Positions 1,430 to 17,191 of a stretch of DNA of 17,192 nucleotides are shown here, in pieces. The translations under genes and the position numbers were made by a program. This DNA comes from Candidatus Thorarchaeota archaeon. Lineage in GTDB: Archaea; Asgardarchaeota; Thorarchaeia; Thorarchaeales; Thorarchaeaceae. Location of the stretch: the NCBI GenBank assembly GCA_016839605.1, contig JAEOTX010000046.1, forward strand, positions 1 to 17,192, written 5' to 3'. The notes beneath the pieces are model-generated. The model was not told the origin of the DNA. It did no database searches and saw only the letters and a list, made by a program, of their open reading frames with translations. Within the stretch, counting starts at the first letter, position 1. Every line of letters begins with the position of its first letter.

Positions 1430-1443
1430 TTGAGGTGACAAAA

Positions 1444-2103: not shown

Positions 2104-2139
2104 AGAAAAAGAGGAAAGGGGTAGAACCGAAGTCCTACC
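2104..2139 (-). terminator. cUUCGg hairpin plus pyrimidine tract terminating the transcarbamylase gene
   Basis: The minus strand reads GGTAGGAC-TTCG-GTTCTACC (8 bp, one G-U) then CCTTTCCTCTTTTT, 14 nt after the stop at 2154. Confidence 0.75.
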
Positions 2140-2153
2140 GTCGTTAATGTAAT

Positions 2154-3200: not shown

Positions 3201-3245
3201 TGTGATTCACGAGTCACATCTTTGTTAAGGACCTGTAGAAAAAGG

Positions 3246-3268
3246 TTGCCAAGAAAGACAGTTGGCAA
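3246..3268. promoter_or_regulatory. Inverted repeat TTGCCAA-N9-TTGGCAA, possible operator in a divergent promoter region
   Basis: Perfect 7-bp arms between the divergent starts at 3200 and 3360. Confidence 0.3.
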
Positions 3269-3359
3269 ATAAGTGTCTGATAGCTCCGTCCTTCTCCGAA
3301 CTCTTAAGTGCCACCCTGTCCATCATCTTTGAATACGATAAGACAAGGTTGGAGAGCGA

Positions 3360-5948
3360 ATGAGTAAAAGAAAAGTAATCAACCTAGTCCTCTCCCTCAT
3401 TGGACCAATTGCTCTGATTGTGATATTGACTATGCCAATCGGTCCATTAGCTGGAGGCCTTCAGATTGTAGCCCCCACAGGGGGAATCTTCGACGTTGGC
3501 GTTGGTGTACATCAACCTGAAACGCAGACAATCAAACTACCAGGTCTAGACGCAAACGTTGTGGTGGTCCAGGATCAGTGGGGAATTCCGCATGTCTATG
3601 GAGATACTATAGAAGATGCATTCATGGCAATGGGGTACATACACGCTAGAGATCGGTTGTTCCAGATGTACATGCAAAACTACCTGGCCGCTGGAAGGAT
3701 CAGCGAGATAGTTGGTGGATACGCGGCCAGCTCGGACAGACTGTATCGAACATTGGGATTTGAGAGGTCGGCAGAGAAGACTTTGGCCTGGTTTGAAGCG
3801 AACACGGACAATCCGGATGTTGCCTATACTCTTGATGCTATTGATGCCGAGGTCGCAGGAGTGAATACTTTCATTGACACGATGACAAGTGTGACCACAC
3901 CGATAGAATTCAAGATACTTGGTTTTGATCCACCACATTGGAGACGGTTAGACATCTTCATCTTTGCACAGTTGCAGTCATGGGGACTTGCGGGAGGTTT
4001 CGATGACCTCCGCAACCAATGGATGAGGTCAACAATGGATAATGATACTATGTTCGACGAGGTGTTCCCGTGGACGATGCCATATTCTATCCCTATTGTG
4101 TTGGAGCAATACAACCTAAGCATCACAGAATATCCCAATGCCAATGGCGGCTATCCGGCGGATCCAAACCCGTCAGCTCTGAACAGCGGGGTCATGGCGG
4201 AGGAAGCATACATACCTCAAGAGAAGCTTGAGGTCCTTATCAAAGCACTAGATGAAGTAATCAATCCAATTGGTGACATGGACTTTGTTGGCAGCAATAA
4301 TTGGGTAGTAGGCGGGGATCGGTCTGCAACAGGTGAACCTATTCTATGTAACGATCCGCATCTTGGATTCCAGACTCCTGCCCTCTGGTATGAATCACAC
4401 ATTGTAGTACCTGGGGAGTTGGATGTGACAGGAGTAGGATTTGCAGGAATGCCTGGGATAATCCTAGGTCACAATGAACACACTGCATGGGGATGGACCA
4501 ATGTCGGTGCGGATGTGCTGGACATTTTTGTCGAACAGCTCAACCCCAACAACTCAAGCGAGTACATGTACAATGGAGCTTACAGAGCATTTGAAGTCCA
4601 TGATGAATCAATCCTAACGAAAGAGGGAAACATAATCCCATTCGAAGTCTTAGAGTCTGTTCATGGACCCCTGATTGATTCAATTACGAATACCTACAAT
4701 GTTGACTCTGAGGATAGTCCGAATCTTGCTATGAGGTGGACTGGAAATGACATAATCCACAATATCATGGCAGTTGGTATGATCAATAAGATGAGTGACC
4801 TTGAGAGCTACTTTGACGCCGCCTATTGGTGGGACGTCCCTGCTCAGAACATGGTCTATGCAGACGATCAGGGCAACATTGCACTCACAGTGATGGGACG
4901 TTACCCAATAAGAGCAGGATACGATGGGCATTTTCCAGTTCAGGCTTTGAATGATTCAGTCGGGTGGGTTAGCAATGTCCCCTATGCGTATATCCCGAGA
5001 ACAGTCAATCCTTCTCAAGGATACATTCAATCCACGAATCAGCTTTCAATTGACTGGAATACCTACGGTTTTGAGCTACTCGGACCCTATGCTGATGGCT
5101 ATCGTGGACGTAGGATTGATGCATTGCTTGCAGCTGATGATAGTGTTACGATGGACGATATGAAGAGATTCCAAGCAGATGCTCTCGAAGTTAGAGCCCA
5201 AGAGATTGTGCCCTATGTCGTTGATGCCTGGAACAATTTAGGAGATGGAAATGCAACAGTCGATGAAATCATTGGATGGCTTGATGACTGGGACTATGTG
5301 ATGGATCCGGATGAAAAAGCTCCCACCATTTGGATGTTCCTTCGTAACGCAATTCACTATGAAACGTTCGACGAAATAAGGAGCATCGACTCCAGTCTGA
5401 TGTTGTCACGGACACCGGTGTTGGAGAAGTTCATCAAGGAAAACAACGTGTACTATTTCGATGATCACACCACAGCGGGAGTTGTGGAAACCCGAGATGA
5501 GATTCTTGTACGAGCCATGTACCGGGCGTTGGATGACCTTGTAGCAGATCCGGTCTTTGGAAACGATCCGGCAGATTGGGATTATGGAAACAAGCACAGG
5601 GTCTACTATGACCATCTTGCCGATCTCACATCTGTTGGTGGAATCCCTCATCGAGGGCAGCTTACGTTAAATGTCGCAGGCGGATGGAGAGTGGGTGGTG
5701 GACCTTCGTGGCGCTTGGTGGCCGACATGAGCAATATCCAGATGAGTTACGGCATCTATGCTCCAGGCCAAAGCGGCAATCCGTTCAGTCCACACTTCGA
5801 CGACCTGTTTTGGATCCAGTATTCCTACGACGAAGTCACTGAGCAGCATGGATATCATGCGATCTATTTCTACTCCACAGTAGCCGCATTCCAAGCCGCG
5901 GACACAGAAGGAACGATGATAGAAGCAGTGATTACATTTATTCCATAG
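3360..5948 (+). CDS. Penicillin acylase family protein (Ntn hydrolase, peptidase S45) with N-terminal membrane anchor
   Basis: Motifs DQWGIPHVYG, GYIHARDRLFQM, G-SNNWVV (autocleavage site and catalytic Ser), NDPHL, GWTN, QNMVYAD and PGQSGNPFSPHFDD. Basic then hydrophobic N-terminus; GGAG upstream of the start. Confidence 0.95.
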   Translation: MSKRKVINLVLSLIGPIALIVILTMPIGPLAGGLQIVAPTGGIFDVGVGVHQPETQTIKLPGLDANVVVVQDQWGIPHVYGDTIEDAFMAMGYIHARDRLFQMYMQNYLAAGRISEIVGGYAASSDRLYRTLGFERSAEKTLAWFEANTDNPDVAYTLDAIDAEVAGVNTFIDTMTSVTTPIEFKILGFDPPHWRRLDIFIFAQLQSWGLAGGFDDLRNQWMRSTMDNDTMFDEVFPWTMPYSIPIVLEQYNLSITEYPNANGGYPADPNPSALNSGVMAEEAYIPQEKLEVLIKALDEVINPIGDMDFVGSNNWVVGGDRSATGEPILCNDPHLGFQTPALWYESHIVVPGELDVTGVGFAGMPGIILGHNEHTAWGWTNVGADVLDIFVEQLNPNNSSEYMYNGAYRAFEVHDESILTKEGNIIPFEVLESVHGPLIDSITNTYNVDSEDSPNLAMRWTGNDIIHNIMAVGMINKMSDLESYFDAAYWWDVPAQNMVYADDQGNIALTVMGRYPIRAGYDGHFPVQALNDSVGWVSNVPYAYIPRTVNPSQGYIQSTNQLSIDWNTYGFELLGPYADGYRGRRIDALLAADDSVTMDDMKRFQADALEVRAQEIVPYVVDAWNNLGDGNATVDEIIGWLDDWDYVMDPDEKAPTIWMFLRNAIHYETFDEIRSIDSSLMLSRTPVLEKFIKENNVYYFDDHTTAGVVETRDEILVRAMYRALDDLVADPVFGNDPADWDYGNKHRVYYDHLADLTSVGGIPHRGQLTLNVAGGWRVGGGPSWRLVADMSNIQMSYGIYAPGQSGNPFSPHFDDLFWIQYSYDEVTEQHGYHAIYFYSTVAAFQAADTEGTMIEAVITFIP

Positions 5949-5959
5949 GAGGCATGTAG

Positions 5960-6412
5960 ATGAGAAAGATAGATGATATATTTCCCAATCTTGGGTTTGC
6001 ACCAACACTGATCATAGTTATTGTGCTAGGCATCGCTTTGCAACTAACTGGTTTTTGGATGACAATGCTACTTGCTGGAGGTTTTGGAGGTCTTTTCACC
6101 AGACGCCATCGTCACTCGTTCTTGACAGGATTCCTTGGAGTTGGTATTGCTTGGACAGGAATCTTTGCGTATCTAACGGTAACCGCTCAAGCAATGGCAG
6201 TCGCTGAATTTTTCATTGGCTTGCTTGGCCTTTCAGGGATGGGCTGGCTGGTCATCGTAATCAGTTTACTGCTGGGATCACTCCTGGGAGGTTTTGGCGG
6301 GCTGTTTGGAAGGTCTCTTGTGGAAATCATCGACGAGTTCTCTTCTGAAGCAGAACAAACCCATACTCCAGTTCAACCCACTGAGGAAATCGTAATGGAG
6401 GAGAAACAATAG
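5960..6412 (+). CDS. Small Gly-rich membrane protein (about 4 TM), paralog of 7130..7537
   Basis: GGAGG SD, starting 11 nt after the acylase stop. GxxxG-rich hydrophobic helices and an acidic tail. Confidence 0.85.
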   Translation: MRKIDDIFPNLGFAPTLIIVIVLGIALQLTGFWMTMLLAGGFGGLFTRRHRHSFLTGFLGVGIAWTGIFAYLTVTAQAMAVAEFFIGLLGLSGMGWLVIVISLLLGSLLGGFGGLFGRSLVEIIDEFSSEAEQTHTPVQPTEEIVMEEKQ

Positions 6413-6418
6413 AATAAG

Positions 6419-6441
6419 GCTGTGGCATATTCTGCCACAGC
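6419..6441. terminator. Hairpin between convergent genes
   Basis: Perfect 9-bp stem GCTGTGGCA-TATTC-TGCCACAGC, with short pyrimidine-rich tails on both strands. Confidence 0.6.
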
Positions 6442-6457
6442 ATCTCCCATTTATTGT

Positions 6458-7033
6458 TCATCGCCTTTTGTGATGATAAATACCAGTGATAAATGCAAAT
6501 GCGCATACACCTAGAACAAGCAAGCCAAGTATGATTATTGAGTTCTGGGAAGAATGACTGATAGTTCCCTCTACCTGTTTCCCGTATACTGATGAATCAT
6601 TGTCATAAACTACATACCAGGAACCAGATGACGGAATACCAACATTCCATGATAGAGCGGTCAAATCAGTCTTGTTGAGCATTGAAATCGCATTAAGGCC
6701 TTCTGACCAAGATTCGTAGTTCTGTTCATCAAAGATATACAGATCAACACCGTCACCCCAGCCTGGCCATAAGTCATACTTCTTTTGATCTCCTATGAAG
6801 TGATCACCATCAGTTGTTACGGTGAAGCTTCCTTCAAGAGCATCGCCCTTCTCACATTCGAAAGAATATACCTGAGAGGTGAGGGGACTCAGCCAGAAAC
6901 TATGAGTTGCCAGAGGTTCATGAATGGAAGCATGTTGTTTCGTTGCCACTGTGGAAATTGGCAATGCTGCAATGAGTACCAGTAAGGTGAGAGCAACAGA
7001 CATCTTCAATTGACGGCCTTTGTTGGTCAACAT
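6458..7033 (-). CDS. Type I membrane protein with a GOLD (emp24/gp25L/p24)-like beta-sandwich
   Basis: Signal peptide, then a beta-strand pattern including KGDALEGSFTV, VDLYIFD and GSWYVVYDNDSS (compare p24 G-x-Y-x-x-C-F-D-N-x-x-S), then a C-terminal TM helix and the tail YHHKRR. Confidence 0.65.
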   Translation of the reverse strand: MLTNKGRQLKMSVALTLLVLIAALPISTVATKQHASIHEPLATHSFWLSPLTSQVYSFECEKGDALEGSFTVTTDGDHFIGDQKKYDLWPGWGDGVDLYIFDEQNYESWSEGLNAISMLNKTDLTALSWNVGIPSSGSWYVVYDNDSSVYGKQVEGTISHSSQNSIIILGLLVLGVCAFAFITGIYHHKRR

Positions 7034-7129
7034 ACTACATTCAGTATTGCAATATGCACCTTATGAATCAACTTGATTCTCACGAATGGCATGCAACACC
7101 ATTTTAGGGTAAACAGTCTATGAATAGGC

Positions 7130-7537
7130 ATGGCCCAACGACTGACCCAGAAGGCCTTGGATACTGGGATATATCATGGATACTTCTTGACGCTCCTAAT
7201 TGCTCTGCCACTTCAGTTGATAGGGCATTGGATTCTGATGATTCTTGCTGGAATCGCTGGGGGGCTAACTGTGAAGAGGTACAGGCATGCTCTCATCGCT
7301 GGATTTCTGGGGGTGGGAACTGCATGGTCAATCATCTTCGTTTTTCTAAATGTATTTGCTCAGGCCTATGTCATCGGAGAGTTCTTTGCATCACTTATCG
7401 GACTACCTGGATTCGAACGATGGATAGTTTCCCTTTCAATCCTCATAGGCGGCACTCTTGGTGCAAGCGGATCAATTGTGGGCAGGGCGATTGCTGAATT
7501 GGTTCAAGAGATTCGATCTTCCACTGACGCAGACTAA
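7130..7537 (+). CDS. Small Gly-rich membrane protein (about 4 TM), paralog of 5960..6412
   Basis: Aligns without gaps to 5960..6412: LQLIGHWILMILAGIAGGLTVKRYRHALIAGFLGVGTAW versus LQLTGFWMTMLLAGGFGGLFTRRHRHSFLTGFLGVGIAW. Confidence 0.85.
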   Translation: MAQRLTQKALDTGIYHGYFLTLLIALPLQLIGHWILMILAGIAGGLTVKRYRHALIAGFLGVGTAWSIIFVFLNVFAQAYVIGEFFASLIGLPGFERWIVSLSILIGGTLGASGSIVGRAIAELVQEIRSSTDAD

Positions 7538-7591: not shown

Positions 7592-8800
7592 ATGCATTTG
7601 GAGGAAACTGAAACCATGCATCGCAAGATTACTGATGGAGTCTACTATGTCGGTGTCGATGACCACCACACGGCACTCTTTGAGAATCTCTGGCCACTCC
7701 CATTTGGGGTGTCCTACAACTCATATCTGGTTGTTGATGATAAGATCGCGGTAATTGATACTGTGAAGAACATCTTCACTCAGGAATGGCTTGATAACAT
7801 TCGTGAGATAGTGGACCCAGAGAAGATAGACTACATTGTCTTGAATCACATGGAACCAGACCACACCGGAGCCCTACCGAAAATCGCAGAACTCGCAAAG
7901 AACGCAACTATAGTATTCACACAAAAAGCAGCTGGGATGGAGGAATCCTTTTACAATGTAGGCCTTAAGACCAAAGTTGTAGAAGACCTAGAGGAGCTCT
8001 CTCTCGGGAAAAAGACACTGAAGTTCGTACACGTTCAGTTCGTCCATTGGCCAGAAACCATGGCCACGTATCTGGCTGAGGATGAGGTGCTATTCTCATG
8101 TGATGCATTCGGCTCATTCGGTGCACTCAATGGGAAGCACTTCGATGACGAGATTGACATGCGCATGATTGAATCTGAGAGCAAAAGATACCTCTCCACG
8201 ATAATCACGAGTTACTTCAAGTTCGTTCAACGGGCTATTGAGAAGGTCAAGGGTCTCGGAGTAGGAATCAAGTTCATAGCACCCAGTCATGGACCGATCT
8301 ACAGAAAAGACCCCACATGGGTCATCGACCACTTCGACAAGTGGAGTAGTCCTGAGCTTGACAAGCATGTCACGATAATTTTCGGCTCGATGTATGGCTA
8401 TAACCTGCGCCTTGCTCATACGCTCAAGAAAGAGCTAGTAGAGCTAGGAGTCGAAGTCAAGATACACAACATCTCCTATAGCACCATGGACAATGTCATC
8501 ACGGATGCTGTGAGGGCAGGAGTGATTGTTCTAGGCACTCCAACCTACGACGCGTTCCCGTTCCCCAAGATCTGGGCGTTCGTCAATGAGATGGAAGGGA
8601 AACGGTTCCAGAAGAGACCCATAGCTCTCTTTGGCACCCATGGATGGGGCGGTGGAGGTGTCCGTAAACTGAAGAAGTATCTTGAGGAAAATAAGTTCGA
8701 GATATTGGAGCCAAATGTCAGATGCAGAGCAACACCTACTGAGGAAGAGCGACAGGCAATCAAGACATTGGCTAAGAACATCGCAGAGATTGTGAAGTAG
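7592..8800 (+). CDS. fprA: Flavodiiron protein (A-type flavoprotein; O2/NO reductase)
   Basis: Metallo-beta-lactamase-like diiron motifs YNSYL, NHMEPDH, HWPETM, CDAFG and PSHG, followed by a flavodoxin domain (SMYG, GTPT, FGTHGWGG). An alternative start at 7616 has GGAGG upstream. Confidence 0.95.
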   Translation: MHLEETETMHRKITDGVYYVGVDDHHTALFENLWPLPFGVSYNSYLVVDDKIAVIDTVKNIFTQEWLDNIREIVDPEKIDYIVLNHMEPDHTGALPKIAELAKNATIVFTQKAAGMEESFYNVGLKTKVVEDLEELSLGKKTLKFVHVQFVHWPETMATYLAEDEVLFSCDAFGSFGALNGKHFDDEIDMRMIESESKRYLSTIITSYFKFVQRAIEKVKGLGVGIKFIAPSHGPIYRKDPTWVIDHFDKWSSPELDKHVTIIFGSMYGYNLRLAHTLKKELVELGVEVKIHNISYSTMDNVITDAVRAGVIVLGTPTYDAFPFPKIWAFVNEMEGKRFQKRPIALFGTHGWGGGGVRKLKKYLEENKFEILEPNVRCRATPTEEERQAIKTLAKNIAEIVK

Positions 8801-8956
8801 TTCTCTAATCCATTTCAAGCTGCAACTTCATCATTGTGCTTGTAGCTAGTTGGTTCCTAAAGTAACCTTTTTAGTCAGCACCATATTTCCTGAAACAGTT
8901 GTTCGACAAGTGCAGTGATTTATGCTGCACGACAAAGAATGACGGAGGTAAGAGAG

Positions 8957-9544
8957 ATGAAACTCAAGGGAACCAAAACCGAGAAGAATCTACTGACGTC
9001 TTTTGCTGGTGAGTCACAGGCGCGAAACAGATATACTATGGCTGCCTCGACCGCTAAGAAAGAGGGATACCAGCATATTTCTGCAGTCTTCCTGGAGACT
9101 GCAGGGCACGAACTGGAGCATGCGAAGAGGTTCTTCAAGTACCTCAAGCAGGGCAACGCAACCGAGGCCATCAAGGTAGAATGGGATTTTCCAACTTCGG
9201 GGGCCTATGAAAGTACTGAGGAGATACTCAGGCATGCTGCGGCGGGAGAGAAATACGAGTATAGCGAGATGTATCCGAACTTTGCTGATATTGCCGAAGA
9301 AGAGGGCTTCAAGGAGATCGCTCACCAGTGGAGAATGATTGCAAAGGCTGAAACCTGGCATCATGAGCGCTATCTCGCTCTTGCGGAGCAAATCAAAGAT
9401 GGGTCGATCCTCAAGAAGAAAGATAAAGTCCGTTGGCGATGCGATAACTGCGGCTACATTCATGAAGGAACCTCTCCGCCCGATAAGTGTCCTGCCTGTC
9501 AACACGACAAGGGCTATTTCATGCTCGACTTTGCTGAATACTAG
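8957..9544 (+). CDS. rbr: Rubrerythrin
   Basis: LKGTKTEKNLLTSFAGESQARNRY, ExxH motifs (ELEH, ETWH) and a C-terminal rubredoxin-like CDNC...CPAC. GGAGGT SD at 8944-8949 supports ATG 8957 over 8915. Confidence 0.96.
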   Translation: MKLKGTKTEKNLLTSFAGESQARNRYTMAASTAKKEGYQHISAVFLETAGHELEHAKRFFKYLKQGNATEAIKVEWDFPTSGAYESTEEILRHAAAGEKYEYSEMYPNFADIAEEEGFKEIAHQWRMIAKAETWHHERYLALAEQIKDGSILKKKDKVRWRCDNCGYIHEGTSPPDKCPACQHDKGYFMLDFAEY

Positions 9545-9557: not shown

Positions 9558-9597
9558 CACCTTGGTCTAGATTTGGGCCAAGGTGCTTTCAATTTTT
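9558..9597 (+). terminator. Hairpin plus U-tract terminator after rbr
   Basis: CACCTTGGTCTA-GATT-TGGGCCAAGGTG (12 bp, two G-U) followed by CTTTCAATTTTT. Confidence 0.75.
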
Positions 9598-9937
9598 CAA
9601 CATGCTCAAGATAATAGAATGAGAAGATGAGCGGACAGCAGAGCTGTCATTGTTGGGGGTTTGGGGTTGATTGCTGTTAGGGGAGAGAAAAATTATCATT
9701 TCCTGCTAGCCCGCTCTGGATTATGCAGGTAATCCTCTCTTTAGTAATGGTGTATCACACGGTCAATATTCCGAATTTCTCTGAAAGACTAACTGTTTTA
9801 GTATTTGAAGTCATATTGATTTCGTTCTAGTATAGGAATGCGCATTGACTAAACTTTGACAGAGAGGCGTTATGTATTTGCCATGAAACTGTAGAAGGAA
9901 CTTCTGCCATGGAATTCAGAGTCTCATTTTGATTATT

Positions 9938-10027
9938 ATGACAATACACCACGACAATCCGTTCACACCCCCGCCAGAGCCCTGGAATACTGATAACCCA
10001 TTCACACCTCCTCCTGAGCCCTGGTAA
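9938..10027 (+). CDS. 29-aa small protein MTIHHDNPFTPPPEPWNTDNPFTPPPEPW with a duplicated 11-aa unit
   Basis: ATG at 9938 and TAA at 10025-10027. The two 33-nt units differ at 6 positions, all synonymous third-codon positions. The second unit ends exactly at the stop, and a terminator-like hairpin follows. Confidence 0.7.
   Translation: MTIHHDNPFTPPPEPWNTDNPFTPPPEPW
9953..10024 (+). repeat. Two-copy direct repeat, 33-nt unit with 39-nt period
   Basis: gacaatccgttcacacccccgccagagccctgg (9953-9985) versus gataacccattcacacctcctcctgagccctgg (9992-10024); 27 of 33 positions identical. Confidence 0.9.
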
Positions 10028-10039
10028 AAATAATCCATA

Positions 10040-10077
10040 TTGAGACATCCCATGGGTGTCTCAAACACCTTTTCTTC
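10040..10077 (+). terminator. Hairpin (near-perfect palindrome) plus pyrimidine tract after the small ORF
   Basis: TTGAGACATCC-CAT-GGGTGTCTCAA (11 bp, one G-U) followed by ACACCTTTTCTTC. Confidence 0.6.
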
Positions 10078-10184
10078 GCATCCCTGTTGGCAATTGCTTT
10101 CATTGGTGATTTCTAATCCAAATTCGTTGGATTGGCAAAGCATATACGAGGCTTAAGGCCAGAATTCTTCCGGAGAACAATTCC

Positions 10185-12188
10185 GTGGATGATTTCACAA
10201 AGCTGCTTGTATCCGTAGTAGATAATGGAATAGCTAGTGAGTTTCATTTGCGCTATGATGAGAAGGGACCAGTCCTCTCCAATCCAGATGATGTTTTTGT
10301 GAAGGAAACCATAGGTATTGAGAGATTGTTAGTTCATGATGAGGTTGTCATTGATAGTAGTGGAATAAGGAAAAGGAAATCGTTTGCATCTCCTGTTGAA
10401 ATATGCTTCCAACCGCTGCTTTCAGCTGAAAGAGGTTACATGTTGGATAGAAGCAGACCTGACCACCTTTACCCACCATCTAGCGCGGGGTGGTACACCA
10501 GAATAGAAAGGAGAGGAAGAAAATCTAGCATCTTCTTGCATTCTGCTGCTGATGAAAAAAAATACTGGCTTTCAATCGTAGATAATCAGACTGGAGAATT
10601 CCTTGAAGCGCATACAATATTGCCTTTCGAGAAAGGGGTCTTAGAGATAGCGGATGAAACAGAAGAGTATAGTGAGATGTTTCTAGCACTTTCAGAAGTT
10701 AGCGAGTCAGCAGCAATCGAATGGATGGATCGGATATTAGATGGTCCTCCTCCAACATGGAGTGAATTGGCGAAGATTACTGGCGACGTGTATATCCCTA
10801 ATCTAAAAATAGGTAACAGAATGCGGGATACTGTTGATCAACTTGTCCCGAAGAATTACGACTCACAGACTAGACTGCAAGTAATGGCATTTCTGGGAGC
10901 TATTGTCAAGGGTCATAATCCTGGTGAGGATCCTGTAGACTATTTCGAGAGACTCCAATCAACACAGGTTCTTCGGGCTCTTCTAATGGGTCATCTCTCT
11001 TGCATCCTCAGTGGCGGAGAGCCACCATCGTATGTGAGGATAATACAGGATGGCGCTCGTCAGCGCCTAGGGGTGCCAACAAGGACTGTTACCGATTCTC
11101 TTGACTCAGACACGTGGTATCATACATACTATAGAATCTTGGATAGATTTCCTCTTACCTATGATACAGTCCTGGAATATTCTGCTAGGATGAACAACTC
11201 GAATCGCATTGTGCTTGGATTGCCAGTTACTAAATCGCAGGCAGCTAGGTCACGAAAGAATTGGGTTAATAGACTCGATCTCATGGGCATTGGAGTTATG
11301 CTTCGGGCATTGCTACGACCACCTGCAATAGGATTGAAAAGAATTGTCTACATGGGATTTGCCCACAAATGGCCGACCATCCACATGAAATGGTCATCTA
11401 ATATTGGCAGTGAAGGATATAGAGAACCAAGCATTCAGATATTGGAAATGCCGCCAGATAGCGTTGAGGCTTCCCTTAGAGCTAGACCTAATCTATTGAC
11501 TGTAGACTGGACGGGAGCCTCAGTAAATGAGCAACTATACGATGCAGGCTCAAAAACGTGGAGAGTACCCATTAGTAGGATTGCTAGTTCGATGCAAGGC
11601 AAAAGGACTTTGAGAAGATTGGGAAATGAGTTTGGAGCCTGGAGGGGATCAAGGACAAGAAAACCAACGCATCTTTGGGCAAAGGCCCTTGATGCTACGG
11701 CCAATTTGAAATTTCTGGCTAATCTGGAGCAGGACAAGTATGTCGAATACATGGGCTTGACTCGCAGCGAATTATTACATGCCCTTCAAGAAATGAAAGA
11801 AATAGGAATCATCACAGTTGCATATGTCCCGAATGTATTGGATTTAATGACTTTAGCTGTCATAGCGCAAGGAAAGGCCGCCAATGTGTGTTCTCTAAGC
11901 CGCGCCTTTTTGAAATACTCACCAACAGCAACAGTACATTTAGCAAAAGATGGGGAATGGTTACTAGCCCTTACTCGACAGCCCATATCAACGGCACATC
12001 ATCTTATGGCTATTCTACCCGAGGAAGCAGCTAGACATGGTATTACCTTAAGATGCAATAGAACCACCTCCTTCCGCAGCTACCAAGGTAGATTCTATAC
12101 AAGAATGCTACGTGAAGATGGTACTTGGGAAACAGACATATCCCCGATGCTGAGCCAGATACGGGTTCCTTTTCAAGATGAAAACTGA
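10185..12188 (+). CDS. Large hypothetical protein with a probable C-terminal winged HTH plus Lrp/AsnC-like ligand-binding module
   Basis: 667-aa ORF with a GTG start (start uncertain). YVEYMGLTRSELLHALQEMKEIGII fits a wHTH recognition-helix pattern and is followed by a beta-alpha-beta-beta-alpha-beta-like segment. The first ~480 aa are unrecognised. Confidence 0.7.
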   Translation: MDDFTKLLVSVVDNGIASEFHLRYDEKGPVLSNPDDVFVKETIGIERLLVHDEVVIDSSGIRKRKSFASPVEICFQPLLSAERGYMLDRSRPDHLYPPSSAGWYTRIERRGRKSSIFLHSAADEKKYWLSIVDNQTGEFLEAHTILPFEKGVLEIADETEEYSEMFLALSEVSESAAIEWMDRILDGPPPTWSELAKITGDVYIPNLKIGNRMRDTVDQLVPKNYDSQTRLQVMAFLGAIVKGHNPGEDPVDYFERLQSTQVLRALLMGHLSCILSGGEPPSYVRIIQDGARQRLGVPTRTVTDSLDSDTWYHTYYRILDRFPLTYDTVLEYSARMNNSNRIVLGLPVTKSQAARSRKNWVNRLDLMGIGVMLRALLRPPAIGLKRIVYMGFAHKWPTIHMKWSSNIGSEGYREPSIQILEMPPDSVEASLRARPNLLTVDWTGASVNEQLYDAGSKTWRVPISRIASSMQGKRTLRRLGNEFGAWRGSRTRKPTHLWAKALDATANLKFLANLEQDKYVEYMGLTRSELLHALQEMKEIGIITVAYVPNVLDLMTLAVIAQGKAANVCSLSRAFLKYSPTATVHLAKDGEWLLALTRQPISTAHHLMAILPEEAARHGITLRCNRTTSFRSYQGRFYTRMLREDGTWETDISPMLSQIRVPFQDEN

Positions 12189-12196: not shown

Positions 12197-15100
12197 CTAG
12201 CTCTCCCATTCTCCGGGCAATTTGCTAACAATGACTCCAACCCGTTTCCAGATAAGAACAGCTACAGCAGCGATGATTCCTAGTCCTCCTACCAAAGGAA
12301 CTGTTCCTGCATCCATAGGCATTGATGACGTGCCGGAAATCGTTTCAAATGTCAGTATGGAAGACATTTGGTCCACCACTGGCAAATTGCTGATTGTTAT
12401 ATTGGCACGATACTCGCCTTGCAGTTCGACTGGAAACTCGATTGTTTCGTAGCCAAAATGATGAGCAGCCAAAATCCAAGTATCCACAACTTGGTCCAAG
12501 GGGTCTAAAAGCAAAACCTCAAGTCCCCCGTTCCAGCCTGCGGTCACACCAAGAACGTTGTAGCTCACGTTGAGCGTGCAATTCAAGCCTACTTGAACTG
12601 GATTCAAGGGTGTCAAATCAATTAGCAGCACTGGTGACACTATCAAAGGAATCGAACTGGTGGCTGGTGCATAGCTTGCTGTCCCATAAAATACAACCTC
12701 CACTGTGAGGTTGCCAGCTAAAATGCCGTCTAATGCAATCTCAGCTCCACCACGCGTTCCAGTTAAAGCAGTCTGCTGTAGCATCAAAGCATTATCGCTC
12801 CAGACTCGAATTGTCAGAGGTGCATCTTTAATCTTGAATACGCCAGAAGATACCGTAATGGAGAGTGGAATGGATTGTCCGAACTCCATTGAAACTGGAT
12901 GCTCAATCTGGATAGCAATTGGATATCGAACCAATACTTCAAATTCGACACTAGCACTGAACCAAAAGGTTTCACCCTCGAAGACAAGAATCAGAGAATA
13001 ATTCCCTGCTAGTGATGGAACCCAAGAAATGGAAATCGCTTCCGATGAAATGGAATACGCGGTCCTAGTTGTGAGAGGTGATCCATGAATCTCCCTACCA
13101 TCTGGCGTGTAAAGACTCACAAACACAGTAGCTCCGCCAGCAATATCCCCAAGGCTGTCCACAAGCGTGAAAGCGAACTCATGATGATCATCGATTATTC
13201 CTGAGAAACTCTCATCCAGAACCTTGAAGCTAGTGTATGCCATAACATCGAACTGAACTGCAGTGGTACTCCCAACCCTTAGACTGCTGGCTAGGATAGT
13301 GAGATTCAGGGTGTATTGTCCGACCTCTAGGCCTTCCAGTGATATGCCTATCTCAGTAGATGTAAGGAGAAGTCGGCTAGTCAGGTCTACTGTACCAGCA
13401 GGCCCATGCAATTCAAATGAAGTGTTAAGCTCATCCAAAGCGATGATAGAACCGACCTCATCAATGAATGACGCTGTCAAATACGAATCTGAGGAGCGCT
13501 CGATTGATGAGCTCACACTAACGGTGATGTTGGTAGTGCCATACACCCATATCCTCAGAGCTGCGTTAGACGCGTGATAATGCGCCGTTCCAGCAAATTC
13601 CAGGAGAATGGTGTAGTTGCCCATTCTATCCAGAGTGATGTTCAGCATGATAGGGTCTTGCCCGATTTGGACCACGCTATCAGTCAGTGTGAGACCCAGC
13701 AAGTCGTGATAGGTGGAATAGTCAATCGTGAATCCCTCCAGAGGTGTCCCACCTGAGTCCATCAAAAGCAAAGAGAGTAAAACGGGAGTTATGCCCGCGA
13801 CAACATCGCCTGTTGAAATGACCGACGCTTGTATCTCAGTCCCGTATCTCACACTCACATCGACTGCGTCTGAAGCAGCAAGATACACTCCTAGGCCATC
13901 AAAGACAGCAGTCACTGTCCAGAGACCCTCATCATCTAATTGGACACTCCAGTAGGAATACCCTGTGCTATTTGTCACCACGACAGTGGGCCCGAGCATT
14001 GAACCACCAGGGCCATCTACTATAATCGTGATATTCCGGTTCGCCATCGGAGACCCTTGATAGTCCACGAGGAGGGCTGTGATGTCCAGCATATCTCCAA
14101 CCTCAATCTCTGTTTCAGATACGCCAATGTCTACGTTGCTTTGTGAATATACGGTGTGGTAGGTGTCATCAGTGAAGCCATGAACTGATGTAGCACCTGA
14201 ACAGGAGAGATGAACAGAGTAAAGACCACTCATCGCTGGCACAAAGGTTAGAACTGCCACTCCAGCGCTTGTCGTCACTGTTATCGAGTTAGACCAAACA
14301 CCCAGCTTCACAGGGTCTCCAAGAGGATTGTCAAGTGAAACAACAATGTCCAGGTTCTCAACGGGACTGCCAAGTTGGTCAATGACCAAGACCGTTATGT
14401 TGACATTCTGTCCTGCTATGGGCGGGTCCGGGACTAGTGAAGTTGCTATTGCGCACGTCGTCACGACGTTGAGTTGCTCCTGAGTGTCCCCTCCTATTAG
14501 AAATTGATCTGTCGTAGGTGATGCCCTTATTGTAAGAATCCCGTGAGCATCGTCGGCGAAGTAGAACACCTCGGCTACTCCGCTTCCATTGGTCACTATG
14601 TTGGAAGTCCAAACAGGCACGAGATCAAGCCCTAATACTTCGAAATGTATCAGCACTCCGCTCTGAGTCCCCGCAGTGAGAAGAGTATATCGGAGAGCTG
14701 CGGTGGTGAACAGATCGATCGATGATGGATCAAGTATCAGCTCGGCACTGACAATCTCTAGGACTGATATGGTCGACCCAGTAGAGTTAGCAATGTAGTA
14801 AGGATCTCCTGCATGAAGGAGGGTCATTGTAGCTATCCCTCTATCAACGGGATCCCAGTGGATTGTTTCCATGCCATCGATTGACTCGACCTGAGTCTCA
14901 AACACGATTATGTTATTCTGCTCAATAGAAAGGATGAGCATCCTTCCGACTATATGCTGCTGGTTTGCATCAGTAATACCCACATAAATCTGAAGGGTTT
15001 CTCCAAGCATGCAAGATGGACTATGATTCAGCAGCATGGATGGAATCATGTAAACTCTCTGTATTGCCGACGATATGGCGGATGAGTTGAGGCCATCGCC

Positions 15101-17191
15101 TGCATAACTTGCATTGATTAAGAAGTCGCCAACAGAATCGAAATCATGAGCAAGAGTGCATTTCCCATCTGTGCCAGTCATCCTATTGGCAGCAACAACT
15201 ACAGTACCATTCGACCATAAGATCTCTATTGTCACTTGAGCACCATTCAAGGCTGTGCCACCCCAGTCAATCAATGTGACAACTATGCCCACCTGAGTCC
15301 CCTGTTCGATTGGAAGGATTGGAGTTGTGAGTTCTATCTCCGTGGCGCCCATTATAATGTCAGAAGAAGATATGCTAGCAGCCAATATCCAGTCTTGGGC
15401 CGAAACCATGACGGATGTTGACAGAGTCCCTGGTTCTGAAACTTGGACTAGGTGACTAATAGTTCCATCACCCTGAGTCGTGTTTGTGACATCGAGCAGC
15501 AGTTGGCCATTAATAGAGAAAAAAGTCCTGACTGATATCCCACTGACTCCTATGCTGTGGTAATCCATCAGTGATATGATAACATTGACGAGAGAAGGAG
15601 CTTTCTGGCCAGGCGTTACAATCACATCGATGCCCAGCTGCTCATAGACATCCTCATTCTGCGACGCAAGAGATGCGTCATACCAAGACTGTTGTCCTGA
15701 GGAGGCACGGATGCTGTTCAACCCTCTAAAGAGCGGAATCCATGCGATTCGATAGCGGCCCTCAGTAGTGATTCCGGACTCCTGAATCTGAATACTGCCT
15801 TGGGGGTCAAGAACTGTAACGGTTACAGACAGACCATCAATCGGAATACCAAGATGATCTCTAGCTGTGACCTCAATCCAGGTCTGTACACCAACCTCGG
15901 GGGTTTGAGTAATTGCCAGAGAGAGCGTAGCTGGCACCCGCAAAACAAAACTGGAAGAAGCATACGCGACTCCCCGAGACCCTGTTCCGGAGTACTCCGC
16001 TTCCAATCGATATGGCCCAGCAGAGTTGCCTACCCAAATGGTCTGCACATGACCAGTGGAGTTAGTCGTCAGAGTATGCTCATCAACAATAGTCGAAGGA
16101 AGGAGTATGAATCTAAGAGTAACAGCCTCACCAGAAACTGGACTTGAAGCCGAATCCTTCAATTGAGCCCAGATATCCCATGTGAAACCTACATGATTAT
16201 CACCGCTGATTCCTCCAACAGTAAGTGTGCTTTCTGACCACGAGGTAATCACTTCAGAGTCAATAGAAGTTTGCAGATATTCAGAAGCTGCAAAGACTGC
16301 ATCAAGTTCGTAAACTCCATTTTCGTTGAGAGAAATAGGCACTGATACGTATCCGGTTGAGTCTGTGGTCAAGTCAATATCGACTAGGGTGACAGAGGAA
16401 GGACTAGTCACAGTGACATGTACCACATACCCGGCTAGTGGAATGCCGCTCGAGGTTTCCAATCGGACCTCCAAGGAAACTGAAGTGTACTGATCCATAG
16501 TCCCAGTAGTGAGCCAATCGAGAACAGTGTCTTCGTATACATGCAGCAGACCTGATGACTCACAGCCAACGAGTGAACCATTCCCCAGAAAGGTGATTGT
16601 GTAACTGAAGTTACCTCGCTGACCTGGAGTCCAGTAGAACACGCTGCCTCCAGCAAAGGAAACTCCTTGTTCCGTATGGACTACTTGATCTAGCTCATTC
16701 ACGATTGTGATCGTAGTCAGCTGCGAGGCGATCTCTATCCCATTAGATGAGTAATGAAGAGACCAATCTATGTAGGCCTGTTGTCCCACAGACCCAGTGA
16801 TGAGCGAAGGAGAAAGCATGTAGCTATGGACCGGAGCTACTATGTCAACAGTGTCGCGAAGAATTAGCGCATCACAGTATTGGCGTTCCAAGGTCACTGT
16901 AAGGTTGTATGTCCCCGTGGTGAAATCATTAGACGGTACATGAAGGTCAAATGGTGACACATCCTGATACGACCATTGCTGATGGGTGGGCGGATCTCCC
17001 AGCCTCACTGTGATATTGGTGATGCCTGCGTAGGCTCCTGGTGCAATGGCCCAAGTTAATGTACAATTGATGAGGCTTCCAGCTGATACAATAGGAGTAT
17101 CGATAGCAAGAGACCCCTCCAAAATCCCCCGAACCTCCACGGTGGAAATGCCATAAGCTCGAGAGTGTCCCCAGTCACAAACAACAACATA
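12197..17191 (-). CDS. Very large cell-surface protein with tandem Ig-like repeats and a C-terminal TM anchor (5' partial)
   Basis: The frame stays open past 17140 to the window edge (YVVVCDWGHSRAYGIST-V...). Units of about 100 aa recur with L-x-D-x-x-G-x-P and G-x-Y-x-L-x-A-x-F-x-G-x3-Y-x-x-S motifs. The protein is S/T/V-rich with many N-x-S/T sequons and ends VPLVGGLGIIAAVAVLIW-KR plus a short tail. Confidence 0.88.
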   Translation of the reverse strand, partial: YVVVCDWGHSRAYGISTVEVRGILEGSLAIDTPIVSAGSLINCTLTWAIAPGAYAGITNITVRLGDPPTHQQWSYQDVSPFDLHVPSNDFTTGTYNLTVTLERQYCDALILRDTVDIVAPVHSYMLSPSLITGSVGQQAYIDWSLHYSSNGIEIASQLTTITIVNELDQVVHTEQGVSFAGGSVFYWTPGQRGNFSYTITFLGNGSLVGCESSGLLHVYEDTVLDWLTTGTMDQYTSVSLEVRLETSSGIPLAGYVVHVTVTSPSSVTLVDIDLTTDSTGYVSVPISLNENGVYELDAVFAASEYLQTSIDSEVITSWSESTLTVGGISGDNHVGFTWDIWAQLKDSASSPVSGEAVTLRFILLPSTIVDEHTLTTNSTGHVQTIWVGNSAGPYRLEAEYSGTGSRGVAYASSSFVLRVPATLSLAITQTPEVGVQTWIEVTARDHLGIPIDGLSVTVTVLDPQGSIQIQESGITTEGRYRIAWIPLFRGLNSIRASSGQQSWYDASLASQNEDVYEQLGIDVIVTPGQKAPSLVNVIISLMDYHSIGVSGISVRTFFSINGQLLLDVTNTTQGDGTISHLVQVSEPGTLSTSVMVSAQDWILAASISSSDIIMGATEIELTTPILPIEQGTQVGIVVTLIDWGGTALNGAQVTIEILWSNGTVVVAANRMTGTDGKCTLAHDFDSVGDFLINASYAGDGLNSSAISSAIQRVYMIPSMLLNHSPSCMLGETLQIYVGITDANQQHIVGRMLILSIEQNNIIVFETQVESIDGMETIHWDPVDRGIATMTLLHAGDPYYIANSTGSTISVLEIVSAELILDPSSIDLFTTAALRYTLLTAGTQSGVLIHFEVLGLDLVPVWTSNIVTNGSGVAEVFYFADDAHGILTIRASPTTDQFLIGGDTQEQLNVVTTCAIATSLVPDPPIAGQNVNITVLVIDQLGSPVENLDIVVSLDNPLGDPVKLGVWSNSITVTTSAGVAVLTFVPAMSGLYSVHLSCSGATSVHGFTDDTYHTVYSQSNVDIGVSETEIEVGDMLDITALLVDYQGSPMANRNITIIVDGPGGSMLGPTVVVTNSTGYSYWSVQLDDEGLWTVTAVFDGLGVYLAASDAVDVSVRYGTEIQASVISTGDVVAGITPVLLSLLLMDSGGTPLEGFTIDYSTYHDLLGLTLTDSVVQIGQDPIMLNITLDRMGNYTILLEFAGTAHYHASNAALRIWVYGTTNITVSVSSSIERSSDSYLTASFIDEVGSIIALDELNTSFELHGPAGTVDLTSRLLLTSTEIGISLEGLEVGQYTLNLTILASSLRVGSTTAVQFDVMAYTSFKVLDESFSGIIDDHHEFAFTLVDSLGDIAGGATVFVSLYTPDGREIHGSPLTTRTAYSISSEAISISWVPSLAGNYSLILVFEGETFWFSASVEFEVLVRYPIAIQIEHPVSMEFGQSIPLSITVSSGVFKIKDAPLTIRVWSDNALMLQQTALTGTRGGAEIALDGILAGNLTVEVVFYGTASYAPATSSIPLIVSPVLLIDLTPLNPVQVGLNCTLNVSYNVLGVTAGWNGGLEVLLLDPLDQVVDTWILAAHHFGYETIEFPVELQGEYRANITISNLPVVDQMSSILTFETISGTSSMPMDAGTVPLVGGLGIIAAVAVLIWKRVGVIVSKLPGEWES

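What the first reader, a model, noticed from the sequence alone, without database searches (positions are those of the whole stretch)
9938..10027. Unannotated 29-aa peptide with two identical DNPFTPPPEPW units conserved at the protein level
Seen: the ORF is below the track cut-off. All 6 differences between the two units are synonymous (GAC/GAT, AAT/AAC, CCG/CCA, CCC/CCT, CCG/CCT, CCA/CCT), which suggests selection on the peptide rather than the DNA. The second unit abuts the stop, and a terminator like the others in this window follows. Known: NPF is the ligand motif of eukaryotic EH domains, Pro-rich motifs bind WW/SH3/EVH1 modules, PPP stalls ribosomes without EF-P/aIF5A, and tandem identical cores are typical of multi-core peptide precursors. 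Inference: this could be a bivalent linear-motif adaptor, a processed signal or RiPP-like precursor, or a stalling leader peptide. Caveat: one antisense frame (QGSGGGVNGLS x2) shares the same wobble positions, so synonymy alone does not fix the strand.
Basis: partly seen in the sequence, partly recalled or inferred. Interest (0 to 1): 0.85.

Follow-up and report, generated by a model that had tools for sequence, protein, structure and literature searches.

The report
Repeat micropeptide gene beside Thorarchaeota regulator
The 29-codon reading frame is a real, unannotated gene: it belongs to a family of tiny proline-rich peptides ending in Glu-Pro-Trp that Thorarchaeota (Asgard archaea) keep directly in front of one orphan regulator-like protein, which points to an undescribed peptide-plus-regulator circuit whose function is untested.

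Summary
Observation confirmed. Window 9938-10027 (+) encodes M-T-I-H-H, then two DNPFTPPPEPW units joined by N-T, then a stop. The six differences between the units are all synonymous.

It is a real plus-strand gene. A paralogue lies elsewhere in this genome. Relatives carry 1 to about 7 units, and only the plus frame is open in all of them.

The wider family ends in P-x-E-P-W/F at or near the stop. A tight version of that tail lies 100-290 nt upstream, on the same strand, of 55 of 69 loci of one orphan ~670-aa protein (61 of 69 with a looser tail). The opposite-strand control gave 0 and 1. That protein is window 10185-12188 and is confined to one Thorarchaeota family. Its predicted C-terminal half resembles a tandem Lrp/AsnC fold.

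A terminator-like hairpin and a separate promoter-like box divide the two genes. Units within a gene are identical in protein but diverged at silent sites, and they differ between lineages.

Best reading, about 0.5: the peptide, whole or cut into units, is the partner or ligand of this protein. A cis-acting leader peptide is the main rival. The EH-domain NPF idea fails because NPF is not conserved.

No RNA or binding evidence could be obtained. This scan had already noted proline-peptide plus double-Lrp cassettes in other Asgard genomes, and this module on this same window.

The parts
9837..9861 (+). Upstream conserved block: 10-bp palindrome AATGCGCATT (9837-9846) overlapping a direct repeat TTGAC-N6-TTGAC (9845-9860). 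Candidate operator or upstream promoter element of the micro-gene.
   Evidence: Conserved in the orthologous loci of G001, G015, G005, G011, G002 and G009, and partly in the paralogue on C106. Function inferred, not tested.
9889..9908 (+). Conserved inverted repeat CTGTAGAAGGAACTTCTGCC (7-bp arms, 3-nt centre), 30-49 nt before the ATG. Candidate operator or 5'-UTR hairpin.
   Evidence: Present at both peptide loci of this genome and nowhere else in it at up to 3 mismatches. Conserved across genus loci.
9938..10027 (+). Micro-gene of 29 codons plus stop: 5-residue head, then two identical 11-residue units (X-Pro start, Glu-Pro-Trp end) joined by Asn-Thr.
   Evidence: plus frame open in all relatives, conserved start and stop, in-frame changes of unit number, variation concentrated at third positions.
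10040..10076 (+). Terminator-like element: 11-bp hairpin at 10040-10064, then T-rich tract at 10070-10076.
   Evidence: A stable hairpin (z at or below -2.3) follows the stop in 19 of 22 loci, usually with a T-rich tract, although the sequences differ.
10135..10152 (+). Promoter-like box GCAAAGCATATACGAGGC (BRE/TATA-like), about 43 nt before the start of the 667-aa gene. A GGAGA ribosome-binding motif follows at 10171-10175.
   Evidence: Conserved as AAAGCATATACGAAGC in genus orthologues, and as a GATACAAATAG-type box in another genus. Unique in this genome. Promoter function is inferred.
10185..12188 (+). Partner gene ('fam0'), 667 aa. The N-terminal ~325 residues have no recognisable fold. 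Residues ~325-661 are predicted to be a tandem Lrp/AsnC-like module (winged helix plus RAM-type alpha/beta domain, twice).
   Evidence: No Pfam or NCBIfam match. AF2 model pLDDT 88, pTM 0.85. Foldseek top hit NirDL 4ch7, E 1.6e-6. VIA-align 4czc_A Z 10.5 over 257 residues, AsnC regulators 2ia0 and 2dbb Z about 5. Atlas feature neighbours carry HTH_24/HTH_AsnC.

Best explanation
SHOWN. Window 9938-10027 (+) is a genuine protein-coding micro-gene under purifying selection. It is a repeat-expanded member of a family restricted to one Thorarchaeota family. Family members are 12 to about 90 codons long and end in Pro-x-Glu-Pro-Trp/Phe at, or within three residues of, the stop. Each lies 100-290 nt upstream of, and on the same strand as, one orphan ~670-aa protein. 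The predicted C-terminal half of that protein is a tandem Lrp/AsnC-like module.

INFERRED FROM SEQUENCE. The two genes are separate transcription units: the micro-gene is followed by a hairpin and T-tract, and then by a conserved TATA-like box with a ribosome-binding site before the large gene.

INFERRED MECHANISM. The peptide acts in trans as the cognate partner or ligand of the Lrp-like protein. The X-Pro...Glu-Pro-Trp unit would be the recognised element, with both ends shielded by proline against exopeptidases. The unit could dock either in the amino-acid-type pocket of the RAM domains, through its terminal aromatic residue, or in the unknown N-terminal domain. Binding would change the protein's assembly or DNA binding, possibly at the palindromes upstream of the micro-gene, which would close a feedback loop.

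Tandem identical units raise the dose or valency. They could be cut after Trp/Phe into identical roughly 10-residue peptides, or they could bridge several receptor modules. Units are identical within a gene but differ between lineages, which fits peptide and receptor changing together.
For: Coding and strand.

Repeat identity held by selection: in 15 multi-unit genes the units have the same protein sequence but differ at 66 third-position columns against 3 first/second-position columns.

Pairing: a same-strand EP[WF]-tailed mini-ORF lies upstream of 55 of 69 fam0 loci, or 61 of 69 with the looser tail [EGTA]P[WF]. The opposite-strand control gave 0 and 1. The pairing spans at least 9 genera.

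Shared range: fam0 was found in 72 of 79 genomes of the family and in 1 of 299 other genomes of the phylum.

Trans action: a stand-alone paralogue sits on C106, carrying the whole ~250-nt promoter-plus-ORF segment. It has no downstream same-strand gene and faces ScpB convergently. It is conserved in G001.

Separate transcription units: terminator-like hairpins with z at or below -2.3 in 19 of 22 loci, at offsets of 8-36 nt, plus a conserved TATA-like box and SD before fam0.

Receptor-like fold.

From my own knowledge of Lrp/AsnC (feast/famine) proteins, also reviewed in PMC2995911, which one search listed and I did not open: they sense free amino acids at RAM-domain interfaces and change oligomeric state.
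Against: No sequence-level match of fam0 to Lrp/AsnC Pfam models. The best structural match, NirDL, is an enzyme rather than a regulator, so DNA binding is unproven.

The strict upstream, same-strand arrangement with an intervening hairpin is also what a cis-acting leader would look like.

The peptide has no export signal, so the purpose of a self-made intracellular ligand is unclear.

Eight of 69 fam0 loci lack a recognisable mini-ORF.

In 11 of the 55 mini-ORFs picked up by a first, proline-filtered pass of the census, 1-3 residues follow the aromatic residue. A free Trp carboxylate therefore cannot be a universal requirement without trimming.
Confidence: 0.5

Rival explanations
1. Cis-acting leader or arrest peptide. 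Translation of the mini-ORF slows at Pro-rich stretches or at the ...Glu-Pro-Trp-stop tail. The ribosome's position then decides whether the downstream hairpin terminates transcription or lets it run into the 667-aa gene.
For: The mini-ORF is upstream and on the same strand in 55-61 of 69 loci. A stable hairpin plus T-tract lies between the two genes. The conserved motif sits at the stop, as in termination-arrest peptides such as TnaC (my knowledge). A Pro triplet is present in this member. An earlier scan note (e1-5597958) read related Thorarchaeota ...S-P-E-P-F micro-genes this way.
Against: Stand-alone copies have no downstream same-strand gene (C106 and G001:C62). A conserved TATA-like box and SD lie between the hairpin and fam0. 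The hairpin starts 8-36 nt after the stop, which is too variable for ribosome-hairpin coupling. No consistent antiterminator pairing was found, with z scores around 0 and none of the 11 arm bases paired upstream in the window. The Pro triplet is not conserved. Units that would sit far outside the exit tunnel are kept identical in protein. One to three residues can follow the Trp.
Confidence: 0.2
2. Multi-core precursor of a released peptide (pheromone, RiPP-like or antimicrobial) that acts on a target other than the neighbouring protein. In this reading the neighbour only regulates or processes it.
For: Tandem identical cores diverged at silent sites, as in multi-copy pheromone precursors. Unit number varies from 1 to about 7. 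Units start X-Pro and end Pro-aromatic, a pattern that resists exopeptidases (my knowledge). In G005 a diverged orphan copy lies next to four OppA-type peptide-binding protein genes. Winged-helix domains can serve as RiPP recognition elements (my knowledge).
Against: There is no signal peptide and no leader, only a 5-residue head. No modifying enzyme, protease or exporter is conserved beside the gene: the neighbours are a rubrerythrin, fam0 and an Ig-repeat giant protein. Linkers between units are not conserved. The Opp neighbourhood is seen at one locus only.
Confidence: 0.15
3. Bivalent linear-motif adaptor for eukaryote-like modules of Asgard archaea (EH via NPF; profilin, SH3, WW, GYF or EVH1 via the proline run).
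For: The organism is an Asgard archaeon: fam0 homologues are labelled Thorarchaeota or Promethearchaeota. This member carries NPF and PPP.
Against: NPF is replaced in orthologues, and PPP is absent from many family members. The family tracks one lineage-specific orphan protein rather than the widely distributed eukaryote-like domains. No EH, WW or SH3 gene sits at any locus examined.
Confidence: 0.05
4. Not a gene: a chance ORF, a DNA repeat, or the Gly-rich antisense ORF is the real product.
For: The antisense 75-aa ORF 9916-10143 is open in the window and shares wobble positions. No database protein matches the peptide.
Against: Both antisense frames that are open in the window are broken in other relatives. 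The Gly-rich frame is broken in G005:C10, G005:C5 and G002:C5, and the other frame is broken in those three and in G011:C64. Between paralogues, homology stops at the plus-strand stop codon, and the antisense N-terminal part is not conserved. Start, stop and in-frame unit changes are conserved across more than 60 loci.
Confidence: 0.02

Closest known systems
RRNPP and Rgg/SHP-type peptide-regulator cassettes of Bacillota, including Paenibacillus Alo systems (PMC7425212, listed, not read in full) and leaderless communication peptides
   Same: A very small peptide gene sits next to the gene of a cytoplasmic receptor-like regulator. Peptide sequence differs between lineages while the pairing is kept. 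Candidate operator sites lie in front of the peptide gene.
   Different: The partner has no TPR sensor and instead has a predicted tandem Lrp/AsnC-like fold plus an unknown N-terminal half. The peptide has no export signal. Units are tandemly repeated. The host is an archaeon. Export, re-import and binding are all unshown.
Lrp/AsnC (feast/famine) regulators of archaea and bacteria (e.g. PF0864 2ia0, PH0061 2dbb, ST1022 2pmh) and the fused Lrp-like enzyme NirDL (4ch7/4czc)
   Same: The predicted fold of residues ~325-661 is winged helix plus beta-alpha-beta-beta-alpha-beta domain, twice in one chain as in NirDL.
   Different: There is no sequence-level family match. An extra 325-residue N-terminal region has no recognised fold. 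Known ligands are free amino acids or, for NirDL, a tetrapyrrole substrate, not gene-encoded peptides.
Multi-copy peptide precursors (yeast alpha-factor, honeybee apidaecin, cyanobactin or dikaritin-type multi-core RiPPs); from my own knowledge
   Same: Several identical peptide units lie in one reading frame, identical in protein but not in DNA, and copy number varies between relatives.
   Different: There is no signal or leader sequence, no conserved dibasic or recognition sites between units, and no maturation enzymes nearby. The whole precursor is only 29 residues.
Termination or elongation arrest leader peptides (TnaC, SpeFL, SecM; polyproline stalls relieved by EF-P/aIF5A); from my own knowledge
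   Same: A short upstream ORF carries a conserved C-terminal motif next to the stop, followed by a hairpin and T-tract and then a gene.
   Different: Stand-alone copies exist. A promoter-like box precedes the downstream gene. Spacing is variable, there is no antiterminator, and whole repeat units are conserved rather than only the last residues.
Proline-rich micro-genes beside double-Lrp proteins noted earlier in this scan in other Asgard lineages (e1-5395282, e1-5541519, e1-5553605, e1-5516903)
   Same: The general layout matches: a tiny Pro-rich peptide gene with its own signals next to a large protein with two Lrp-type modules, in Asgard archaea.
   Different: Those notes concern other orders (for example Hodarchaeales). 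Their partner proteins are not detected by the fam0 profile outside this Thorarchaeota family. The E-P-W tail and the tandem identical units are features of the family described here. Homology between the modules was not tested.

Membership tests
RRNPP / Rgg-SHP peptide-receptor cassettes | Small peptide gene adjacent to its receptor-regulator gene | tested here: met
   55-61 of 69 fam0 loci have the mini-ORF 100-290 nt upstream.
RRNPP / Rgg-SHP peptide-receptor cassettes | Receptor built from TPR-type repeats, usually with an N-terminal HTH | tested here: not met
   No TPR or any Pfam family in fam0. The predicted fold matches tandem Lrp/AsnC-like NirDL instead.
RRNPP / Rgg-SHP peptide-receptor cassettes | Peptide exported, processed and re-imported, then bound by the receptor | not testable with these tools
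   The sequence shows no signal peptide or hydrophobic segment. Export and binding need experiments.
Lrp/AsnC (feast/famine) family, for the partner protein | Winged-helix DNA-binding domain followed by a RAM (beta-alpha-beta-beta-alpha-beta) domain | tested here: met
   This holds at the level of the predicted structure only. Foldseek hit 4ch7 at E 1.6e-6. VIA-align gave 4czc_A Z 10.5 over 257 residues, 2ia0_B Z 5.2 and 2dbb_B Z 4.8. The secondary-structure order fits.
Lrp/AsnC (feast/famine) family, for the partner protein | Sequence match to the family models (PF13412/PF13404 HTH, PF01037 AsnC_trans_reg) | tested here: not met
   None of 17 members matched at E up to 1. A PDB profile search gave nothing significant. 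Only language-model neighbours carry these families, at scores of 0.88-0.90.
Lrp/AsnC (feast/famine) family, for the partner protein | Binds DNA and responds to a small ligand | not testable with these tools
   Needs EMSA or footprinting and binding assays.
Leader / arrest peptides with transcription attenuation | Upstream same-strand short ORF followed by a terminator before the regulated gene | tested here: met
Leader / arrest peptides with transcription attenuation | Alternative antiterminator pairing or fixed ribosome-to-hairpin spacing | tested here: not met
   Hairpin offset is 8-36 nt. There is no consistent alternative structure, with z about 0.
Leader / arrest peptides with transcription attenuation | Acts only in cis, so it is always followed by the regulated gene | tested here: not met
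   The stand-alone copies G000:C106 and G001:C62 face ScpB convergently.
Multi-core RiPP or pheromone precursors | Several identical core peptides in one precursor | tested here: met
   Two units here and 1 to about 7 in relatives.
Multi-core RiPP or pheromone precursors | Leader or signal sequence, with maturation enzymes encoded nearby | tested here: not met
   The head is 5 residues. No conserved enzyme, protease or transporter neighbour was found.
EH-domain ligands (NPF motif) | Asn-Pro-Phe conserved as the functional core | tested here: not met
   Orthologues carry KPF, RPY, TPH, RPI or DPK at this place.

The most novel reading that the evidence does not exclude
A peptide-signalling system in an Asgard archaeon, which to my knowledge would be the first described. 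A leaderless multi-copy pro-peptide would be cut into protease-resistant X-Pro...Glu-Pro-Trp decapeptides. A cognate double-Lrp-type receptor encoded next door would sense them. Peptide and receptor would diversify together into lineage-specific 'pherotypes', and tandem repeats would set the signal dose.
Probability: 0.2. Interest if true: 0.9.

Novelty: new variant of a known kind. Interest (0 to 1): 0.72.

Why it matters
Gene-encoded peptide ligands for transcription-factor-like proteins are well known in Bacillota and their phages. My literature searches found none described in archaea, and Lrp/AsnC-type proteins are known to sense free amino acids rather than peptides.

Here a whole family of Asgard archaea keeps a never-annotated micro-gene beside an orphan Lrp-like protein. 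The peptide sequence is clearly under selection and changes lineage by lineage.

If the peptide is the ligand, this would extend the ligand range of the feast/famine fold. It would also give a small, easily synthesised handle (a 10-residue peptide plus one soluble protein) for studying gene regulation in organisms that are very hard to grow.

The case also shows how much coding capacity below the gene-calling cut-off is missed in these genomes. No protein database entry matched the 41-residue orthologue searched.

Tried and rejected
1. Complex prediction of fam0 with the 32-residue form of the peptide gave no verdict (score 0.01, controls not run). It counts neither for nor against binding.

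No expression data were obtained.

3. Pfam, NCBIfam and a PDB-sequence profile gave nothing for the peptide or for fam0.

The search with the 41-aa orthologue found no predicted protein.

5. The N-terminal half of fam0 was folded alone (pLDDT 78). VIA-align gave only generic beta-meander matches with Z up to 5.1, so no fold was assigned.

6. Rfam and tRNA scans of the window were empty.

7. The upstream mini-ORFs noted by another reader, such as the 7-codon ORF at 9909-9932, are not conserved in orthologues and were dropped.

8. The idea that the 660-700-aa proteins near the diverged orphan copies are remote fam0 relatives was rejected. Those in G005 are SBP_bac_5 peptide-binding proteins, and the G011 and G002 ones have no match.

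9. A genome-wide search for further copies of the upstream inverted repeat or the palindrome box found no regulon.

10. The resemblance between the peptide tail and an internal S-R-P-E-P-L-Y-P-P-S segment of the fam0 consensus was considered as a pseudo-ligand. The R-P-E-P part is not conserved there (the window has R-P-D-H), so it is left as a note only.

Full report
THE OBSERVATION

Window 9938-10027 on the plus strand runs from ATG to TAA. It encodes 29 residues: a five-residue head (M-T-I-H-H), the unit DNPFTPPPEPW, the linker N-T, the same unit again, and the stop. The two 33-nt units differ at six positions, all at third codon positions and all silent. Twelve bases after the stop lies an 11-bp hairpin (10040-10064, dG -15.3 kcal/mol, z -3.9). 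It is followed by TTTTCTT at 10070-10076. The description is accurate. So is the caveat that a Gly-rich antisense frame shares the wobble positions and is open in the window (75-aa ORF 9916-10143).

IS IT A GENE, AND ON WHICH STRAND?

The same genome (G000; the window is contig C197) holds a second copy at C106:7775-7861. It is 89% identical over window 9885-10027. Homology runs well upstream of the ATG, is recognisable to about -160, and stops exactly at the stop codon. Inside the units every difference between the paralogues is silent. The only amino-acid changes are in the head (H to Q) and the linker (N to T).

Six-frame searches of related genomes found a family of mini-ORFs in the same genus with 1, 2, 3 and about 7 units. 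Examples are three K-P-F-T-P-P-P-E-P-W units in G015, three ...E-P-F units in G005, two T-P-H-T-P-P-P-E-P-W units in G001, and an array of R-P-Y-S-P-G-P-E-P-F units in G011 interrupted by an assembly gap.

In all of these the plus frame is open from an ATG to a stop that follows the last unit directly or after two residues. Both antisense frames that are open in the window carry stops in other relatives. The Gly-rich frame is broken in three of them. Over 26 units the mean column entropy is 0.43, 0.55 and 1.51 for codon positions 1, 2 and 3. The strand question is settled in favour of the plus strand, and the ORF is coding.

WHAT ORGANISM?

Homologues of the neighbouring 667-aa protein are labelled Candidatus Thorarchaeota or Promethearchaeota in NCBI. 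This agrees with earlier notes of this scan on the same genome. The genome is a 3.08-Mb, 259-contig assembly that is 80% complete.

THE DECISIVE CONTEXT

At seven loci the mini-ORF lies 83-175 nt upstream of, and on the same strand as, a ~654-680-aa protein that I call fam0. Six of these loci are in this genus and one is in another genus. In the window fam0 is 10185-12188. A convergent giant Ig-repeat protein follows it.

fam0 is an orphan. It has 14 database relatives, all hypothetical, and no Pfam or NCBIfam match. A profile of fam0 finds it in 72 of 79 genomes of this one family, usually in 1-3 copies. Among 299 other genomes of the phylum it appears in only one, on a 2-kb contig that is probably a binning stray.

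I then read the DNA upstream of 69 fam0 loci from at least 9 genera.
- A same-strand ATG-started ORF of 8-100 codons ending in E-P-W or E-P-F, with at most three further residues, is present at 55 loci.
- With the looser tail [E/G/T/A]-P-[W/F] it is present at 61 loci.
- The same scan of the opposite strand finds 0 and 1.

Most of these mini-ORFs are single-unit peptides of 12-25 residues, for example ...P-S-R-P-E-P-W and ...R-P-F-S-P-E-P-W. One clade has about 37 residues. Fifteen carry two or more units. The window's peptide is therefore the repeat-expanded form of a family-wide 'E-P-W-tail' micro-gene paired with fam0. Neither N-P-F nor the Pro triplet is conserved. The constant part is Pro-x-Glu-Pro-aromatic at the end of each unit, and every repeated unit begins with X-Pro.

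REPEATS

In 15 multi-unit genes from several lineages, the units within a gene are identical in protein but differ at 66 third-position columns and at only 3 first/second-position columns. In G005:C10 all ten third positions vary. The unit sequence differs between lineages: D-N-P-F-T-P-P-P-E-P-W here, D-P-K-S-P-P-N-E-P-W, T-P-Q-E-P-P-V-E-P-W, N-P-G-E-I-P-H-P-E-P-W and so on.

The identity of units is therefore old and held by selection, and duplication happened repeatedly. Each unit seems to be a functional entity that must fit the same partner, and that fit changes from lineage to lineage.

GENE BOUNDARIES

In 19 of 22 loci a stable hairpin (dG -12 to -24 kcal/mol, z -2.3 to -6.8) follows the stop at a variable offset of 8-36 nt. 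A T-rich tract usually comes next. The sequences differ between loci, so it is the structure that is conserved.

Between the hairpin and fam0 lies a conserved TATA-like box. In this genus it reads AAAGCATATACGAAGC, at window 10135-10152, and another genus has a GATACAAATAG-type box. It sits about 43 nt before the fam0 start and is followed by a GGAGA-type ribosome-binding site. I infer two transcription units.

Upstream of the micro-gene, genus loci share three elements:
- a palindrome AATGCGCATT with TTGAC-N6-TTGAC (9837-9861);
- an inverted repeat CTGTAGAAGGAAnTTCTGCC (9889-9908);
- a TGAT(T) motif about 10 nt before the ATG.

The inverted repeat occurs in this genome only at the two peptide loci. 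No consistent antiterminator pairing was found.

THE PARTNER

An AlphaFold2 model of fam0 built with 17 sequences is confident, with pLDDT 88 and pTM 0.85.
- Foldseek's only significant PDB matches are the siroheme decarboxylase NirDL, a fusion of two Lrp/AsnC-like units (4ch7, E 1.6e-6).
- VIA-align gives 4czc_A Z 10.5 with 257 residues aligned over model residues 325-661, against the next-best Z of 7.1.
- The AsnC regulators 2ia0 and 2dbb align at Z about 5 on residues 491-634.
- Language-model neighbours of residues 325-667 are archaeal proteins carrying HTH_24 or HTH_AsnC-type domains, with scores of 0.88-0.90. This is a lead only.

The N-terminal 325 residues, a beta domain plus a helical domain, have no convincing match (best Z 5.1). 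So fam0 is regulator-like by predicted fold. There is no sequence-level membership in the Lrp/AsnC family, and DNA binding is unproven.

STAND-ALONE COPIES

The C106 paralogue, also present in G001:C62, keeps the ~250-nt promoter-plus-ORF segment. It lies between a HypE-like gene and a convergent ScpB, with no gene downstream on its strand.

Further orphan copies exist. In G011:C64, G002:C5 and G005:C5 the units have diverged from each other. This suggests weaker constraint away from fam0. One of these copies sits beside four OppA-type peptide-binding protein genes. Single-unit copies in G015:C9 and G014:C351 precede an MFS transporter.

HOW IT MOST LIKELY WORKS

Shown: this is a selected, plus-strand micro-gene. 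It is paired across a whole archaeal family with one orphan protein of Lrp-like predicted fold, and its identical repeat units are maintained by selection.

Inferred: the two genes are separate transcripts, and the product acts in trans.

Proposed, at about 0.5: the peptide is the cognate partner or ligand of fam0. Lrp/AsnC proteins sense free amino acids at RAM-domain interfaces and respond by changing assembly and DNA binding. This rests on my own knowledge. The review PMC2995911 was listed but I did not open it.

A peptide whose business end is Pro-Trp, at or near the C-terminus, could present its aromatic residue to such a pocket, or it could bind the unknown N-terminal domain. Proline next to both ends of each unit would protect it from exopeptidases (my knowledge). 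Tandem units would multiply the dose if they are cut after the aromatic residue, or they would bridge several receptor modules if they are not. The palindromes before the micro-gene are candidate sites for feedback control.

RIVALS

- A cis-acting leader or arrest peptide (0.2) fits the layout and the motif at the stop. It is weakened by the stand-alone copies, the promoter-like box, the variable spacing, the missing antiterminator and the conservation of whole distal units.
- A released multi-core peptide acting elsewhere (0.15) fits the repeats. It lacks a leader, an exporter and maturation genes.
- A linear-motif adaptor for eukaryote-like domains (0.05) fails on conservation of NPF and PPP.
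- 'Not a gene' is excluded by the comparative data (0.02).

COMPARISON WITH WHAT IS KNOWN, AND NOVELTY

In layout the module works like the RRNPP and Rgg/SHP cassettes of Bacillota, but it fails their membership tests: there is no TPR receptor and no export signal. The partner resembles Lrp/AsnC proteins in predicted fold only.

My literature searches found no archaeal peptide-regulator pair and no description of these peptides. No database protein matches the 41-residue orthologue.

Earlier notes of this scan describe proline-rich micro-genes beside double-Lrp proteins in other Asgard orders, and another note on this window suggested a peptide-regulator module. Those are unchecked AI notes. 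I tested the Lrp-like fold and the pairing here myself, but I did not test homology between the modules.

I rate this as a new variant of a known kind, a peptide-plus-regulator cassette with unrelated parts in a new domain of life. Interest is 0.72.

LIMITS

No RNA, ribosome or peptide evidence was available. The one complex prediction gave no verdict. Promoter, terminator and operator assignments rest on sequence conservation only.

Noticed in passing
window 12197-17191 (-): A giant protein of more than 1664 aa, running off the window, made of Big_1, Big_3_5 and MG2-type Ig-like repeats. It is convergent with fam0 and syntenic at the orthologous loci of several genomes, including another genus. 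It could be a target of the module; this was not examined.
   Followed up: partly
L050 (G005:C5) 683-7285: Four tandem paralogous SBP_bac_5 (OppA/DppA-type peptide-binding) genes lie convergent to a diverged orphan copy of the peptide gene. This was seen at this one locus only.
   Followed up: partly
window 10185-12188, residues ~90-103 of the product: fam0 carries a nearly invariant Y-P-P-S...G-W segment. In most relatives S-R-P-E-P-L precedes it, which resembles the peptide tail S-R-P-E-P-W. In the window it reads S-R-P-D-H-L. It may be coincidence or an internal pseudo-ligand.
   Followed up: no
L051 (G011:C100) 7174-7434: The longest array, about 7 units of R-P-Y-S-P-G-P-E-P-F, is interrupted by a run of N. 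The true unit number is therefore uncertain, and such arrays are likely under-assembled elsewhere.
   Followed up: no
G138:C292:110-2098: This is the only fam0 match outside the family. It sits on a ~2-kb contig of a genome from another Asgard family, at E 2e-197. It looks like a mis-binned Thorarchaeota contig rather than a transfer.
   Followed up: no
G000:C207:3-1715 (-): A second fam0 paralogue of this genome lies on a short contig cut at both ends. In other genomes of the genus this paralogue is preceded by a single-unit ...H-P-G-R-P-F-S/Y-P-E-P-W micro-gene. The matching peptide gene of G000 is probably unassembled.
   Followed up: partly
window 7592-9544 (+): A flavodiiron protein gene and a rubrerythrin gene lie directly upstream of the micro-gene and are syntenic in most genus orthologues. 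An oxidative-stress link for the module is conceivable but untested. The rubrerythrin gene has its own hairpin terminator at 9558-9585.
   Followed up: no
window 10114-10132 (+): A 7-bp inverted repeat AATCCAA-N5-TTGGATT lies immediately before the fam0 promoter-like box. It is not conserved in orthologues.
   Followed up: partly
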